From the human T2T-CHM13v2.0 reference genome, Homo sapiens, in NCBI RefSeq assembly GCF_009914755.1, contig NC_060925.1: a DNA stretch of 64,000 nt. One strand, written 5' to 3'. The position numbers were made by a program, and so were the translations under genes. This document shows positions 26,967-34,900 of this stretch, piece by piece (positions within the stretch are counted from its first letter, which is position 1; each line of letters begins with the position of its first letter). The notes under the pieces were generated by a model. It saw only the letters and a program-made list of their open reading frames with translations. It was not told where the DNA came from and made no database searches.

Positions 26967-28419
26967 TGCACATTTATTTTAATAATGTTGTCATAGCTAC
27001 AGTCGCTTCTAGAGTTGCTCTTTGGGGATAACTATCTTATATTCTTCTGAATATATTTTAATAGTGACAAAACTTATCTTTGCAGGTGATTTTTAAAATT
27101 TGTATGCAGCCAAGTCACTATGAATTATCTTTAGTGAGTAAAGAGGAAGATCGAACTGGTAACACTGTGGGTAAACAACTGAAAAATAATGTTATCTTTC
27201 TCTGAACATACTTGCACAAGACAAATTCCAAAAATATTTTGACTACGTTATTTTTGAAAAGGGTTTCCAGTATTTCAATGTGACTACTTTCACTAATGAT
27301 ACTTGCTTACCTAAAGTGCTTGTTAACATGCAGTTTTGGAATTTCATAGGTCTATGCCCATACTGACTTGTACTTGCTTAGTGTTGTTTTACATTCTAGT
27401 TCAACATCTATTATGTGATAGACACTGGGGATTAATAGGCTGTGGTCTTTGCCCATGAGGACCTCAAAACTTAGTTGAGAACACAGAAATACAAAGAGTC
27501 CTGTGTGAAAAATAAGTATTGGTGTTAAGATAAAGAAGCGGCAGTGGAAGACAGTGGAGGGACTGTCTGTTAGAGGGAGGAATTTATTGTGGTGTCGGCA
27601 AAGCCTTCTTTGGACTGAAGGATGAATTATGATTAGAAGTTCATTAAGAGGAGGAGGGAAGGGGACTACAGGAGTCATTCCAAGCCAAAGGAACAAAAGA
27701 TACAGGGACAGAAACAGCAAGATATGTTTGGGGGAATCTCAAGTTAGCCAATACTGTTATTGTGTGAAGTTCACAACAGGGGCAGGGAGGACAGGAGATG
27801 GGGCCCAATGACGAAAAGGCCTTGTATGTACCATGTTTAGAAGTTTGAATTTTATCCTATAGGAGTCAGGGAGAGGTTCTATGGGTAGGATTTCCCATCC
27901 CAACAGGATTGTAAACTCCCACATCCAATTAGTCACACCTCCATTTTTTTTTCTGTTTCTTTAACATTGTCTCAGATTCATTCCTTCTGAAATCTACCTT
28001 ATTAGTTCAGGTCTTCTTAAATTTGTGCCTGGACTGTTCACCAACTCTTGACTGGTCCTGGGGCTCCAGTTCACCTCTTGCTCCCAACAATCAATTTTCT
28101 ACAGAACTATCAGAGCAATCTTCCTTTCCATCAATCTCAACTCTGTTCAAAAACTTTCAATAGTTTTATGTGACCTAAGAGGTAGCTGCCTCCCCACCCT
28201 TTCAGCTTGCCATTCAAGGCTGCATAATTTGGTCCCAACCCCCTTTCCGTCCTTGACTCCTCTCACTGCTAACAGAGACAGAACTCATTTACTTACTCTT
28301 TTGACTGTACCTTTGCTTTCACGAGGGCTCTTTCCTGGAATGATATGTCCATACAACTATTGTTGTTGTTCTTACTTTTAGCTCTTTTCTTAGCCCACTT
28401 GTACCCAGGTTTGATCACA

Positions 28420-28760
28420 CCCCCTACTCTCCTGCCCTGGAAGTAACTACTATTCTGGTTATAGTCTCTTAATATCTATATCTATATCTATATATATGCA
28501 TCCACAGATAATGTGTAGTATTGTCTTGAAAAAAATATACATAAATGGTATACTTTGTCTCCCTCTGCGATTAGTTTTTTCACTATCATTTAGTTTTTAA
28601 GATTTATCCCTATTGACATAAATAGCTATAGTCTTTTCAATTACTGTGTTGCATTTCATTTTATAAATATACCATACATTATTCATCCATTCCTCTAAGG
28701 GTGGGCATTTATGTTGTTTTCAAGGTTTTGCTATTACAGTGTTACAACGAATATCCTTAG
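28420..28760 (-). mobile_element. Ancient L1M 3'-end fragment
   Basis: ATAAATATACCATAC..ATTCATCCATTCCTCTAAGGGTGGGCATTTATGTTGTTTTCAAGG is typical of an antisense L1ME/MC 3' region. Confidence 0.6.
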
Positions 28761-29680
28761 CTTAGCTGGTCTCCTTGTCTTATACAAATTTTACTGACCT
28801 TTCAAGATCCTGCTTTCATCCCAGCTCCTCTGGGAAAGCCTTCCCTGAATCCCCCAGCCCACAGCGGCAAAGTCTTGGTACTCAAAGTTGCTTGTGCATC
28901 TTTGGTATCATCCCACTGCCAAGCACACAGCTACGCAAAGTAAGGCACTTAAGAAATATTCGCTACACGGATGAACAAATGAATGAATGAATGGGGCAGC
29001 ACCACTCCGTGATGGCTCTATTCCTTTTTAATGGACTTTGGCGCCTTGGCCCACTTTCCTTCTTTGACAGCACTGGTCCTACTCCAGAGCATTCCTCTAG
29101 CTAGCAAAGCAGTGTGTGGATGTGTGGGTGTAGGTGGCGATACAGACCTCACTGGATGAGGACCGCCTCTCCCTGCAAGTTCACGATCCCGGCAAACTCC
29201 AGTGCTTGAAGTTCAGAGTCCTACCCCACCCCCCTCACCTCCACGCCCCTTCTGCACTGGTCAAGCCAGCGAGCCGCTGCAGCCCTGATCGAGTTAAGGC
29301 TGCTGGAGAAGGATGCGGACGGGGCCAGTGACTCGTAGTAGATCCCTCCGCGCGGAGCTCGGGCCGGCGCTTCTTCCTGCGGGAAACCCCTGGGTGCCCA
29401 AGGCGGCGGGGCCGAGGCCGCGGCGACAGTGGGGCGGGGCTTGCGGTGGGAGGAGGCGGCTGAGGCGGAAGGACACACGAGGCTGCTTCGCTGCACACCC
29501 GAGAAAGTTTCAGCCAAACTTCGGGCGGCGGCTGAGGCGGCGGCCGAGGAGCGGCGGACTCGGGGCGCGGGGAGTCGAGGCATTTGCGCCTGTGCTTCGG
29601 ACCGTAGCGCCAGGGCCTGAGCCTTTGAAGCAGGAGGAGGGGAGGAGAGAGTGGGGCTCCTCTATCGGGACCCCCTCCCC

Positions 29681-29695
29681 ATGTGGATCTGCCCA

Positions 29696-29727
<32 letters not shown>

Positions 29728-29818
29728 AGGAGGCGGCGACCGAGAAGATGCCCGCCCTGCGCCGCTCTGCTGTGGGCGCTGCTGGCGCTCTGGCTGTGCT
29801 GCGCGACCCCCGCGCATG
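29681..29818 (+). CDS. NOTCH2NLC: uN2C upstream ORF (poly-glycine microprotein), exon-1 part: MWICP(G)14DREDARPAPLCCGRCWRSGCAARPPRM; continues in exon 2 outside the window
   Basis: ATG at 29681, 15 nt before the repeat. 46 codons open to the donor (phase 0). Matches the known uN2C/uN2CpolyG N-terminus. Confidence 0.88.
29696..29737 (+). repeat. NOTCH2NLC: (GGC)10(GGA)2(GGC)2 trinucleotide repeat, NIID-associated STR, non-expanded allele
   Basis: Counted directly: 14 Gly codons, with two GGA interruptions at 29726-29731. Confidence 0.97.
29748..29818 (+). pseudogene. NOTCH2NLC: Frameshifted NOTCH2 start and signal-peptide segment
   Basis: ATG CCC GCC CTG CGC CGC TCT reads MPALR-RSAVG. The rest of the NOTCH2 signal peptide (ALLWALLALWLCCATPAH) lies in a different frame. 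Confidence 0.88.
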
Positions 29819-29901
29819 GTGAGTATCGGGCTGAGGGGCGCTGTCCGCGGCGCCCGGGGCTGCCACCTGGGGCGACCCTTCTCCCCCTCGGTCCTTCTCT
29901 G

Positions 29902-29909
29902 TGTGGGAA
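29902..29909 (+). promoter_or_regulatory. RBPJ/CSL consensus motif TGTGGGAA
   Basis: Exact YGTGGGAA match within the CpG island. Motif only. Confidence 0.45.
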
Positions 29910-29994
29910 GGCCAGGCTCGGCCGCCGGCGCGGAGCGAGGCCACTCGCTGGGTTCCCGAGAGTTTGGACATCGCCGGGGGCCCCTCCCGTGGTG

Positions 29995-30041
29995 CCCCGC
30001 CAACCGCCGGGGTTCCCCGCCAACCGCCGGGGTTCCCCGCC
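29995..30041. repeat. 20-bp tandem duplication CCCCGCCAACCGCCGGGGTT, about 2.3 copies
   Basis: Exact copies at 29995-30014 and 30015-30034, plus CCCCGCC. Confidence 0.95.
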
Positions 30042-31672
30042 GCCTCTGCTCCCCGCGGCCCGGGACCCCTCACACGCCTCCTCGGCAGGAGGGAGGCCGG
30101 CAGCAAGTCTCAGAAACTCCTTTTTCGTAGTGCCAGGGTGCAGGGAGGTGGGCAGTTTTGCCCTTCAGGTTCCGCGTTTCTTGGGGTCGAGCGAGAGCCG
30201 ACGGCGGGCCTCGGAGGGGCTGAGCGAAGGCGTGCCAGATTCTGGCGTGGAGAGCGGGGGCAGGGCCGCCAAGCCAAACGGCCTGCACCTTCGCAGCCAG
30301 CCTCGCCTTTGCCAGGGGGCGGCACATGGGCCGGGTGTGTGGGCTTGGTTTGGATGGGGACGGGGTTTTGCGGCGCGCCTGAGTTTTGACACTCCAACCC
30401 CACCGAAAGTCCGGAGGAGCCGGGTGTGCTGCTCGCGTCTTTGAAAGGTGGAGGCAGGAGAAGTAGGGCAACTGGTGTGGCTGCATGCTGAGGCACATGA
30501 TTTAAAAATCTCAACTGCTGTTATTCTTTCCGAGGCGCGGAGCTCTGCTGCTGTTTCAGGCTGTGTCCAGACCCAGGAATGTGGTGTGACGATCACCAAT
30601 TCCTCCAACCTGGCAGCAGCATTTGCTGCTCCTTTGGCATGGCTGGGGGTGGGGCACGGGCGGGTGAGAAAAAGTGGATACGTCAATTCAAAGGGCTTCC
30701 TTAGAAAGCTTCTTTATGGTTGGATGTTTCTAACACGGTTGGACCAAGGAAAGGGAATCAAATCATATCTTCCCCATCCCACCCACACTTTTAGATTCTA
30801 CATTTCTTCAGACCCTTTAGTGGAAATAACTTGGGCTTTGGAGCCCTGCTCTGTAATCCTGGATTCAAATCCAGCTCTGCTATATGAACTCACCAATAAA
30901 ATGGGAATGAAATTATCCAGCTAATAGGATTAATTAAAATAATGTATATTAAACGGATGACACTCCAAAGGTGTTCAGAAAGTCCTTTGAGGGCCGAGGC
31001 TGTGTTTTACTGCTTCTGAGATTGATGCTCCCAGTGGGATGGTGTCTTGTGCATATTTGTTGAACGGAAAGCAGCCCCTTCTTTTTCTGAGCCTAATCTG
31101 AATAAAGATTTTTACCTTCACCAAAAAACTAGTACATGAACTACATCTGTTTTCAAAGAAAAGGTTAGGAAGATGATGAGCTTCAGAAAAATATGGTCTT
31201 TGTTCATTGTTAACAGTCAGTCGACATGTCAATCGCAGATGTTTAAAAAGAGAACAAGGTTATTTATCACCCGAAAATAGTACTGGGTTGTTCAGCACCA
31301 ACTAGATACTTCTTGGAAAGTTCAAATTTCGTACACGTCTAGGTCACTAAGAATTTCAGAAGTGGACCAGGAGGCTTTGTAGTGATGAAGCAGAGCTGTT
31401 GTTTCTGAAGCATTTAATAAAGAGCATATATGATGGTGTTTTTGCTTTTCCTTTTTCTTTGAATGAAAGCTTTAAGTGTAGCTTTAGGATAGAGAGGAGT
31501 ATAATCAATGAGACAGTCTGAGGGTAATAATCCTTGGTCTATCATTAACTTGTTTTGGTAAATAACTTAATCTTCATGATATGTAGTCTCTTCACCTATG
31601 AAGCAGGACTAAAGGAATAACCTGCTTTAGAGAATTGTAGGGAATAATAAATATGATTGTAAAGTGATTTGA

Positions 31673-31990
<318 letters not shown>

Positions 31991-34900
31991 GTATTAAATA
32001 ATATGTCAGAAATGGGATTACTCTGACACATAGGGCTTCTTTTATTATAGGATCTCAGTGCATAAAACTATGCCCTCCACCTCTGCTCTGCTGAGGTGCT
32101 GCGATTATTAGCTAGCTTTTAGGTAGTCAAGTTGAGTGTTAGTCAAGTTGACTCAAAGGATAGGATTTAGATATTTTGATTTTTAGACAGGTGTTCTTTA
32201 GATGCTAAACTAATGCAGTAGAAGAGATTTAGAAGCCTGTTTCTTGGTACAAATCTTAAATCTTCTTAGAGTCTACAGTGAAGGCTTCTTGAATCCTCTT
32301 AATTTATTATTGTGTTTTGCTAAGGTACCAATTACAGCACACCCTTCTAAACTTTTGAGTGCTCCTGTGTTTGGCTTGTGGCCAATTGTTAATTTAAACA
32401 TCACGGAGTTTCTAAGGCAAGGAGATGTTAGCAGTATGTCTGATTGTCTAAACAGCTATCCAGGACCATCCTCTTGCTCCTTGTTTTCTTTTGCTTTGCA
32501 ATGGGAAGTGACTCCCTGATTTTGCTGCCTGCTAGATAATTTCTCAGCTGAATTCTTCTCTTAAACAAAATCGGAGTAATTTTCTTTCAGATGGTGATGA
32601 AATTTAACCTAAAACTATTTTTCCTTTCACTTTCTTATTATTCCTTTTTTTTTTGGTGTGGTGGAGAGGAGGAGGAGAGTGATTCCTAGTCTCTCTTATT
32701 TTTCTGAATGTTTAGATTTAAAAAATATTTACCCATAACTTCTTGGGATCTCTCTGCTCCATTCCCACCCTACTGCCTCTCCTGTAGGCTTCTATGACAT
32801 AGAGAAGCAACTTTTGGTTCACCTGGATTGTAGTTGCTGACTTCAGGACCTTTAGAGAATGTTTAAATTCAGTGGGATATGCTTGGATGGTTCAGAGCAG
32901 CCTTACAATACATTTTAAAAATATCACACCCACAGAAATTCTATTTTGCCCACAAAATTTGCATTGATCTAGTTCCCACTCTGTGTTGCCATTCCTAGTG
33001 ATCCTCCTCCCTACCTCTCCCATTATGGTAGAAAAAAACTCTGTGTCCTGGCTACATCAAAATCTGTTGGGGTGGATCTTGGACTCAGCACCCAGGGATT
33101 CTGATAAGGTAAGTTTGAGAATCCATATTTTTTCAAGGTTTACAGGTGATTCTGACAAGTAACTTGGTTGCAACCCACTGATTAAGTACATTTTTTTTTA
33201 CCTTCAGGTGTGTGTATGAGGTCTTTCTAAATTTAAGAAATTTCCATAACAAATGTAACCTTAGTCATTCCAGTGTTTAACACTTCTGACTCAAGAATTT
33301 TAAAATTGCTGACGTAAGAGATATAGAATATAATGTCATTTCTTCTGTTTATCTGGGTGCAGTATGTCTGCATTGACCCTTTAGAAGGGCTTCATATATT
33401 TAGATGATATAATAAATTCTCCACCTCTCCTTTTCCCTTTTCTTCTGTTATCTCGTTTTCCTTAAATGTCATTCATACATGTTGTTTTTTGACCCTTTAT
33501 CTATATACGTCTGCAATGATTTTAGAGTAAAAAACTGCAAGGCGTGATTTGAATAAGGATATAAGAAATTTTACATCATTTTCTTTATATTGTGTTCACA
33601 GTCCATAGTTACATGCTTCCTTTCTTGATGTCTCAGTTCGAATGCCTAAATTTGAACTATTAATTTTCCTTCCACCCTTTCCTGATTTTCCTGTTTTTGT
33701 TTCCCACCCTTTCTCTGCAAATGACTTGAAACCAAAAGGTCTTCTTTTCTTTCTTTGTCAGCCTACCATATGTGTAGTATTTTGGACAGATCACTGAACT
33801 AGGAGCCAGAAGACCAGAATTCTTCTCCAGGTCTGTTATTAATTGGTTTGGTGACCTTGTAGGAGAGCCACTGTTTTGGTCCTCCATTTTCTGATGTTCA
33901 TTGTTCATGGTCACAGAGCCAATTAGAGTTGAGACTAGAATTCCTTTCTTCTGGTGTCCAGTGCCTCATTCACTGTCCACATTGCTTCCATCTCATGTAC
34001 AAATGCGCTTATGTGCACAAAAACTCTTATAACATCCTCAAGTGCTTATTGTTAATGCGTACATGAGGAAGGAATCGTGTATTTTCATTTATGTGTTTAT
34101 TCTAATGCCCATACCCTACCCCTGTACCTGGCATGATGCCTTGGTATCTAATAGGCACACAATAAATACTTGTTCAGTCGAACAATTATTTTTAGCCACT
34201 TTCTTATTTTGGACAACTGTGGTACTCCTAGACATTTTAAAAATAGTATTTGCAGGAGTCATGCTTACCTTACATTTGGGGAAAAACCAAATTTTTCCCT
34301 TCCCCAGATGTTTCATTTAAACTTGTAATTTTGAATTTCTTTGTGTGTGGGGTTTCTTTCTTTCTTTTTCTGATCACTTCTGCAATTTATAAAGGTCACT
34401 TTGACTTTGGAATCTCACTTCAAAGGCACTGCCACCCACCCCCTGCCTCTCACTCAAGTTTGCTTCCACTGCTTCCTGTATTACTGTATTACTAGGCCAG
34501 CAATTTCTGTTATTTTGTCCAGAATAGCCACACCTTATTGTAATTTCATCATTTTGGGGACTAGTCATTTTTGGAATACTATTTTTAAAATTAGAGTTAA
34601 CTAAGTTTATATTTATTTTGATAATTTTTTTTGAGATTTTTTTCATTGAGTTGGATATTGCAAACTTGTACTGGATTGAGAGAATATGTACATTTAGTAA
34701 AGTATATTTGCTTTTTTTTTTTTGAACCAAGAGAGTCCCCTGAACACCCTGCTGACAAAAACTAAAGGTGAAATATGATGAATAAATATTTGAGAGAATC
34801 ACATGGTGTTGAGTTGTCTCTGCCACATGATTTTGATCCTTGAGGGCCAGGTCTGTGCTACACACATTTCTTCTCTGTACTACAGAACTTGTCTGGCATG

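What the first reader, a model, noticed from the sequence alone, without database searches (positions are those of the whole stretch)
29681..29818. GGC repeat embedded in a poly-glycine uORF (uN2C) of a human-specific NOTCH2 paralog
Seen: an ATG in weak context (CCCC ATG T) 15 nt upstream of 14 Gly codons, open to the splice donor and out of frame with the NOTCH2 ATG. Established: expansion of this repeat in NOTCH2NLC yields toxic uN2CpolyG and causes NIID and related disorders. This is the biological centrepiece of the window, but it is known rather than new. Inference: the weak context would allow leaky scanning to downstream starts.
Basis: partly seen in the sequence, partly recalled or inferred. 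Interest (0 to 1): 0.8.

Follow-up and report, generated by a model that had tools for sequence, protein, structure and literature searches.

The report
NOTCH2NLC polyglycine start frame, normal allele
This is the well-known GGC repeat in exon 1 of the human-specific gene NOTCH2NLC, here at normal length, read as glycines from the first AUG of the mRNA; its expansion causes neuronal intranuclear inclusion disease, so the finding is real but already described.

Summary
ATG 29681 (C at -3, T at +4) is the first ATG of exon 1. Five codons later come 14 Gly codons, (GGC)10(GGA)2(GGC)2 at 29696-29737. The frame stays open for 46 codons to the donor at 29818|gtgagt and lies +1 from the ancestral NOTCH2 ATG at 29748.

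The same assembly holds five copies of this exon. Only the window copy has the 2-bp deletion that defines NOTCH2NLC.

I found exon 2 at 69829-69910 on the window scale. Spliced there, the frame gives 57 codons (5 + 14 Gly + 38) and stops 8 nt before the main ATG, as published for uN2C.

An acceptor 8 nt downstream (69837) joins the Gly frame to the EGF frame. Only 1 of 32 AG sites does this, and only the window copy among five. That product is also in print, as NOTCH2NLC isoform 2 / PolyGN2C-iso2.

The allele is normal length. Ribosome occupancy could not be tested here. Everything found is already known, so interest is low.

The parts
29514..29818 (+). NOTCH2NLC exon 1 (305 nt, GC 0.74, CpG o/e 0.95)
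   Evidence: Boundaries come from the hub's RefSeq table. The donor ATG|gtgagt was read.
29681..29683 (+). First AUG of the mRNA, in weak context (C at -3, T at +4). It starts uN2C in transcript variant 1 and is the annotated CDS start of NM_001364013.2.
   Evidence: plus the hub table (coding 29681-29818). Boivin 2021 passages report MS mapping and ATG deletion.
29696..29737 (+). (GGC)10(GGA)2(GGC)2: 14 Gly codons, a normal-length allele
   Evidence: The hg38 reference allele is (GGC)9(GGA)2(GGC)2.
29681..29818 (+). Exon-1 part of the Gly reading frame: 46 codons, leaving the exon in phase 0
29748..29750 (+). Ancestral NOTCH2 initiator ATG (A at -3), frame +1 relative to 29681. In this paralog it opens only a 31-codon ORF that ends in exon 2.
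29762..29763 (+). Site of the NOTCH2NLC-defining 2-bp deletion: a run of 2 C here against 4 bases in the other four copies (CCCC in three, TCCC in L002)
   Evidence: Alignment A1 and the Fiddes preprint passages.
29819..29824 (+). Intron 1 splice donor gtgagt
   Evidence: It is identical in 5 of 5 copies.
29618..29620 (+). First in-frame stop (TGA) upstream of ATG 29681. It limits any N-terminal extension; the only in-frame near-cognate codon between them is GTG 29651.
29100..30600 (.). CpG island around the promoter, exon 1 and the start of intron 1 (GC 0.68, CpG o/e 0.79, against 0.14 in 27000-28500 and 0.54 in 31000-32500)

Best explanation
The stretch is the 3' half of exon 1 of NOTCH2NLC, carrying a normal-length allele of the NIID repeat. 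A scanning 40S subunit meets AUG 29681 first. Initiation there reads the GGC/GGA tract as 14 glycines and continues in phase 0 to the exon-1 donor.

What follows depends on the exon-2 acceptor:
- With the canonical acceptor (69829 on the window scale) the frame ends after 57 codons at TAA 69862-69864, 8 nt before the main ATG 69873. This is the published uN2C uORF (transcript variant 1).
- With the AG 8 nt downstream (exon start 69837) the same frame runs into the EGF-repeat frame. The glycine tract then sits near the N-terminus of a NOTCH2NLC protein (transcript variant 2, RefSeq's selected model, called PolyGN2C-iso2 in print).

The 2-bp deletion is what makes this paralog special. It kills the ancestral ATG's ORF, gives uN2C a C-terminus that the other paralogs lack, and sets the phase that allows the in-frame fusion.

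Status of each step:
- Shown here: all sequence anatomy, the paralog comparison and the frame arithmetic.
- Shown in print: initiation at this AUG, and toxicity of the expanded polyglycine products.
- Inferred: that NM_001364013.2 uses exactly the +8 acceptor.
For: Sequence:
- First AUG, 14 Gly codons and 46 open codons to the donor.
- Five copies of exon 1 in the same assembly. 5 of 5 carry the upstream ATG with the same context and a Gly run of 10-14 codons. 1 of 5 (the window) has the 2-bp deletion. 2 of 5 (L004, L005) have ATG>ATA at the ancestral start.
- Exon 2 lies at 69829-69910 (82 nt, ttttag|CATTGCAG, donor gtaagt). The spliced frame gives 57 codons, stop TAA 69862-69864, main ATG 69873.
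- With the +8 acceptor the window's frame is open for 269 codons through exon 4. The other 4 copies stop at 50-54 codons with either acceptor.
- Of 32 AG dinucleotides from -500 to +70 around the exon-2 start, only 69837 gives an open frame.
- Exons 3 and 4 hit Pfam EGF (E 1.9e-16 and 6.9e-19). The exon-4 translation's best-scoring solved relatives are Notch N-terminal EGF repeats (9b3n_A, E 3.6e-45).

Print (passages read):
- PMC9565157: NM_001364013.2 uses an alternative splice site expected to bring in an upstream start codon.
- PMC8320266 and PMC13393261: the repeat is coding in isoform 2, and that product is reported in patient inclusions.
- The hub table gives coding 29681-29818 for NM_001364013.2.
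Against: - No ribosome-occupancy data could be examined. My search for Ribo-seq evidence on this gene returned only papers that cite the uORF.
- Zhong et al. 2021 is not held.
- The exon-2 coordinates of NM_001364013.2 lie outside the hub table, so the +8 acceptor is deduced, not read from annotation.
- PMC9565157 states that variant 2 is expressed far less than variant 1, so the weight of the fusion product in normal tissue is unclear.
- Exon 1 RNA folds no better than shuffles (z -0.04; 51 of 100 shuffles fold at least as well). At normal length nothing here supports a special structure that helps this weak AUG.
- The allele here (14 triplets) is not pathogenic, so nothing about toxicity can be read from this window.
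Confidence: 0.95

Rival explanations
1. The Gly frame is mainly the N-terminus of the principal NOTCH2NLC protein (variant 2), and the uORF reading is secondary. The first AUG would then make a polyG-EGF protein as the gene's normal product.
For: - RefSeq's selected transcript starts its CDS at 29681 (hub table).
- The frame is open for 269 codons through exon 4 with the +8 acceptor.
- In variant 1 the main ATG lies behind six AUGs, and uN2C stops only 8 nt before it, so both leaky scanning and reinitiation should be poor (review passage).
- The isoform-2 product is reported in patient inclusions.
Against: PMC9565157 calls NM_001364012.2 the physiologically dominant transcript and says variant 2 is much less expressed. 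The canonical acceptor sits directly behind the polypyrimidine tract, while the +8 AG follows CATTGC.
Confidence: 0.12
2. The repeat matters at the RNA or DNA level (RNA foci, sequestration of RNA-binding proteins, non-AUG translation in the Ala and Arg frames, antisense products, CpG-island methylation), and the AUG-started Gly frame is incidental.
For: - All six frames are stop-free across the repeat.
- The repeat lies in a CpG island.
- The abstract of PMC9683706 reports polyG, polyA and polyR in a mouse model (listing).
- Yu 2021 reports RNA-binding proteins in inclusions.
- Boivin 2021 says RAN translation cannot be formally excluded.
Against: - On the + strand no ATG precedes the repeat in the Ala or Arg frame within exon 1.
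- Boivin 2021 reports translation predominantly in the Gly frame, loss of product when the ATG is deleted, and toxicity of the protein alone in mice.
- As a sole explanation this is poorly supported. As a contributor it remains open.
Confidence: 0.05
3. The window is another NOTCH2 paralog or a mis-assembled copy, and the 2-bp deletion is an error.
For: The five copies are 96% alike over 447 nt, so confusion is possible in principle.
Against: - The window copy differs from the other four by the deletion and by its own repeat structure.
- The hub's RefSeq table names it NOTCH2NLC.
- The deletion is the published mark of this paralog.
- The computed uN2C matches the published 5 + Gly + 38 layout, which depends on the deletion.
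Confidence: 0.01

Closest known systems
uN2C / uN2CpolyG uORF of NOTCH2NLC (Boivin et al. 2021, PMC8186563)
   Same: It is identical in every tested feature: an AUG 15 nt before the repeat, a 5-residue N-terminus, a Gly run, a 38-residue C-terminus, an ORF spanning exons 1-2 and a stop 8 nt before the main ATG.
   Different: Nothing differs except allele length. The window has 14 Gly codons; the paper's control construct had 12 and its expanded one 100.
NOTCH2NLC isoform 2 / PolyGN2C-iso2 from NM_001364013 (PMC8320266, PMC9565157, PMC13393261)
   Same: It uses the same ATG and the same exon-1 coding part (hub table). The papers place the repeat inside the CDS of this variant. The 2026 paper names a 14-Gly wild type.
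   Different: The exact splice junction is not given in the passages I read. I deduce the +8 acceptor at 69837 from frame arithmetic.
Upstream ORFs of NOTCH2 and the other NOTCH2NL copies
   Same: All have the same upstream ATG, the same 5 first residues and a Gly run at the same place, in 5 of 5 copies.
   Different: - Without the 2-bp deletion they leave exon 1 in phase 2 and stop at 50-54 codons with either acceptor. Their C-termini differ, as Boivin 2021 also states.
- Their pure GGC runs are 6-7 units against 10 here, in this one genome.
- The names of L002-L005 are my assignment from position and features, not from an annotation.
FMRpolyG uORF of FMR1 (FXTAS)
   Same: A CGG/GGC repeat in a 5' leader is read as polyglycine within a small upstream ORF that also restrains the main ORF (review passages; Boivin discussion).
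   Different: According to the review, FMRpolyG starts at a near-cognate codon and its uORF overlaps the main ORF. Here the start is a true AUG, and the uORF ends 8 nt before the main ATG.

Membership tests
NOTCH2NLC (Sh-2ntdel paratype of NOTCH2NL) | 2-bp deletion just downstream of the ancestral NOTCH2 start codon | tested here: met
   It is present in 1 of 5 copies, the window (alignment A1). The definition comes from the Fiddes preprint passages.
NOTCH2NLC (Sh-2ntdel paratype of NOTCH2NL) | Downstream exons encode the N-terminal Notch EGF repeats | tested here: met
   Exons 2-4 were found at 69829-69910, 94215-94474 and 102373-102708. Pfam EGF scores are E 1.9e-16 and 6.9e-19. The exon-4 translation's best-scoring PDB relatives are Notch EGF repeats. 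Exon 5 was not located.
NOTCH2NLC (Sh-2ntdel paratype of NOTCH2NL) | Genomic position in 1q21 beside NBPF genes | not tested
   Taken from the hub's RefSeq table only (NBPF19 downstream).
uN2C upstream ORF | Canonical AUG 15 nt before the repeat, Gly frame | tested here: met
uN2C upstream ORF | Spans exons 1-2, ends 8 nt before the main ATG, 5-aa N-terminus and 38-aa C-terminus | tested here: met
   57 codons = 5 + 14 + 38. The stop is at 69862-69864 and the main ATG at 69873.
uN2C upstream ORF | Actually translated in cells | not testable with these tools
   Known from print only: MS and ATG deletion in Boivin 2021. No Ribo-seq data could be examined.
Pathogenic NIID expansion allele | Repeat expanded far beyond the normal range (predicted expanded alleles were 60-436 copies above the reference in Sone et al.) | tested here: not met
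   The window has 14 triplets, one GGC more than hg38's (GGC)9(GGA)2(GGC)2. This is a normal allele.
NM_001364013.2 coding sequence (isoform 2) | CDS starts at the upstream ATG in exon 1 | tested here: met
   The hub table gives coding 29681-29818. The frame is open to the donor.
NM_001364013.2 coding sequence (isoform 2) | An alternative splice site joins that ATG to the EGF frame | tested here: inconclusive
   Only 1 of 32 candidate acceptors (69837, +8) keeps the frame open, which agrees with 'alternative splice site'.
Weak Kozak context | No purine at -3 and no G at +4 | tested here: met
   C at -3 and T at +4. The rule itself is established knowledge (Kozak), as cited in the review passage.

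The most novel reading that the evidence does not exclude
In normal alleles the main route to NOTCH2NLC protein may be the first-AUG fusion product of variant 2. The variant-1 main ORF sits behind six AUGs, and uN2C stops only 8 nt before it. The glycine tract would then be a physiological N-terminal part of a human-specific protein, made possible only by the 2-bp deletion. Normal length variation of the tract could tune the protein's amount or behaviour.
Probability: 0.1. Interest if true: 0.45.

Novelty: already known. Interest (0 to 1): 0.15.

Why it matters
The locus is medically important. Expansion of this tract causes NIID and related disorders through polyglycine proteins. The window shows the normal architecture from which that arises. 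All of it is in print, including the second (isoform 2) product and the six upstream AUGs. The work here adds a clean check within one genome. Among the five copies in T2T-CHM13, only NOTCH2NLC has the reading phase that yields the uN2C-specific C-terminus, and only NOTCH2NLC can fuse the glycine frame to the EGF repeats. This helps with designing paralog-specific antibodies and assays, but it is not a discovery.

Tried and rejected
- RNA structure of exon 1: MFE -166.3 kcal/mol, but z -0.04 against shuffles, with 51 of 100 shuffles folding at least as well. This gives no support for a special structure at normal repeat length.
- Rfam over 28500-31000 at gathering thresholds: 0 matches.
- Pfam on the 46-residue exon-1 peptide: 0 families.
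- Search for Ribo-seq evidence in print: only papers that cite the uORF. Zhong et al. 2021, which may hold such data, is not in the library.
- A whole-window ATG pattern search was uninformative and was replaced by a script.
- Exon 5 and the full length of either protein were not reconstructed. ORFs are reported only through exon 4.
- I did not check supplements of any paper. Boivin's Figures S1F and S2A (uORF alignment) and the 2026 paper's Figure S1C (peptides) may show the junctions directly.

Full report
**Observation**

- ATG 29681 sits in ctcccc ATG tg, with C at -3 and T at +4. It is the first of three ATGs in annotated exon 1 (29514-29818); the others are at 29748 and 29816.
- Twelve bases after the ATG the tract (GGC)10(GGA)2(GGC)2 begins. 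It covers 29696-29737 and gives 14 Gly codons. Tandem Repeats Finder reports period 3, 14.3 copies and score 72.
- The frame is open for 46 codons and ends exactly at the donor, ATG|gtgagt, in phase 0.
- The first in-frame stop upstream is TGA 29618. The only in-frame near-cognate codon between it and the ATG is GTG 29651.
- The ancestral NOTCH2 ATG at 29748 (gagaag ATG c) is 67 nt downstream, in frame +1.
- This is the only GGN run of 8 or more codons and the only pure CGG-class run of 7 or more units in the window.
- It lies in a CpG island: 29100-30600 has GC 0.68 and CpG o/e 0.79.

**Which paralog**

The window's genome is held, and a search with exon 1 found five copies. In the alignment:
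- 5 of 5 copies share the upstream ATG, its context and the donor.
- 1 of 5, the window, lacks two C's from the C run right after the ancestral ATG.
- 2 of 5 (L004 at 146.11 Mb, L005 at 145.35 Mb) have ATG>ATA at the ancestral start.
- L003 (120.08 Mb, minus strand) has the intact ancestral reading. L002 (120.74 Mb) has two further substitutions.

The Fiddes et al. preprint (passages) names the 2-bp deletion just downstream of the NOTCH2 start as the mark of NOTCH2NLC. The hub's table gives the same name. Naming L003 as NOTCH2 and the others as NOTCH2NLR/A/B is my inference from position and features.

Repeat structures in this one genome:

| Copy | GGC-GGA-GGC units | Gly codons |
|---|---|---|
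| window | 10-2-2 | 14 |
| L003 | 6-3-1 | 10 |
| L002 | 7-5-1 | 13 |
| L004, L005 | 7-2-1 | 10 |

hg38 has 9-2-2 at NOTCH2NLC (Sone et al. preprint). The window allele is therefore normal and one GGC longer than hg38.

**Where the frame goes**

Only exon 1 is in the window, so I fetched the next 47 kb.
- Exon 2 lies at window-scale 69829-69910 (82 nt, ttttag|CATTGCAG, donor gtaagt). Exon 3 is at 94215-94474 and exon 4 at 102373-102708.
- Exons 3 and 4 hit Pfam EGF at E 1.9e-16 and 6.9e-19. The exon-4 translation's best-scoring solved relatives are N-terminal Notch EGF repeats.
- Spliced to the canonical acceptor, the Gly frame gives 57 codons (5 + 14 Gly + 38) and stops at TAA 69862-69864, 8 nt before the EGF-frame ATG at 69873.

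This is exactly what Boivin et al. 2021 describe for uN2C: an AUG 15 nt before the repeats mapped by mass spectrometry, no product when the ATG is deleted, an ORF spanning exons 1-2 that ends 8 nt before the main ATG, a 5-aa N-terminus, and a 38-aa C-terminus that differs from the NOTCH2 and NOTCH2NLA upstream ORFs (passages).

**The annotation puzzle and its answer**

The hub's table lists 29681-29818 as coding in RefSeq's selected transcript NM_001364013.2. That cannot be the 57-codon uORF. The frame leaves exon 1 in phase 0, while the EGF frame needs phase 1 at the canonical acceptor.
- An AG 8 nt inside exon 2 (exon start 69837) restores the frame. With it the window's ATG 29681 is open for 269 codons through exon 4.
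- Of 32 AG dinucleotides between -500 and +70 of the exon-2 start, this is the only one that does so.
- Exon 2 with 100 nt on each side is 100% identical in 4 of 5 copies (the window's own copy included) and 99% in the fifth, so the +8 AG exists in every copy.
- Because the other four copies lack the 2-bp deletion, they leave exon 1 in phase 2. They stop after 50-54 codons with either acceptor.

The deletion therefore gives uN2C its paralog-specific tail, and it is also the only reason the glycine frame can be fused to the EGF repeats.

This agrees with what is in print:
- The repeat lies in the coding region of isoform 2 (PMC8320266; Sone preprint figure legend).
- The isoform-2 product, PolyGN2C-iso2, is reported in patient inclusions (PMC13393261).
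- A review mentions an 8-nt shift of the intron-1 acceptor for NOTCH2NLB (PMC8918734).

The exact junction of NM_001364013.2 was not visible to me, so the +8 acceptor is a deduction.

**Leaky scanning**

In the variant-1 leader six AUGs precede the main ATG: 29681, 29748, 29816, 69844, 69850 and 69865.
- The second, 29748, has A at -3. In this paralog it opens a 31-codon ORF that ends at TGA 69851-69853.
- The review states that six ATG-driven uORFs reduce NOTCH2NLC protein, citing Zhong et al. 2021, so this too is known.
- The 8-nt gap after the uN2C stop makes reinitiation at 69873 unlikely. This is inference from the general scanning model.

**Other strands and frames**

All six frames are stop-free across the repeat. 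On the + strand the Ala frame contains only the ancestral ATG, downstream of the repeat. The Arg frame is the post-deletion NOTCH2 frame and has no ATG in exon 1. Boivin et al. saw translation mainly in the Gly frame but did not exclude RAN translation. A mouse-model abstract reports polyG, polyA and polyR (listing). Exon 1 RNA is not more stable than shuffles, and Rfam finds nothing.

**What could not be done**

A literature search found no Ribo-seq result for this ORF in held papers, and Zhong et al. 2021 is not held. The translation evidence is therefore the published mass spectrometry, ATG deletion and antibody work. No supplements were read.

**Verdict**

The feature is real, correctly located and correctly interpreted. 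One refinement: the same AUG is a uORF start in variant 1 and the annotated CDS start in variant 2. The allele is normal length. Everything, including the refinement, is already described, so novelty is 'already known' and interest is low.

Noticed in passing
L004 (G000:C1 146.11 Mb, +) and L005 (145.35 Mb, -), exon 1: Both 1q21 copies other than NOTCH2NLC carry ATG>ATA at the ancestral start, and their aligned exon 1 sequences are identical. In this assembly neither copy keeps the signal-peptide start. The Fiddes preprint describes GRCh38 NOTCH2NLB as the long form. This fits the paratype exchange by gene conversion reported there.
   Followed up: partly
window 29483 (-) and 29514 (+): The annotated start of lncRNA LOC124905736 on the minus strand lies 31 nt from the NOTCH2NLC start. 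The two are divergent transcripts from one CpG-island promoter. The lncRNA does not overlap the repeat (hub table).
   Followed up: no
window 29987-30041: A 20-nt tandem repeat (2.8 copies, 94% matches, score 96) lies in the GC-rich start of intron 1.
   Followed up: no
window 29524-29549: A second short GGC-rich tandem (12-nt unit, 2.2 copies) lies at the very 5' end of exon 1. It is invariant in the 5 copies aligned.
   Followed up: no
window-scale 69862-69867 (outside the window, locus L006): The uN2C stop TAA is followed at once by an ATG in the same frame (TAAATG). That ATG opens a 79-codon ORF overlapping the main ORF out of frame. In L002/L015 the ATG is replaced by an Ile codon.
   Followed up: no
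window 29591, 29601 and 29806 (alignment A1 columns 78-80, 89 and 295): Window-specific substitutions in the 5' leader (T for G at 29591, C for G at 29601). There is also an A/G difference at 29806 that makes Thr or Ala in the old signal-peptide frame; the window, L004 and L005 share A, while L003 and L002 have G.
   Followed up: no
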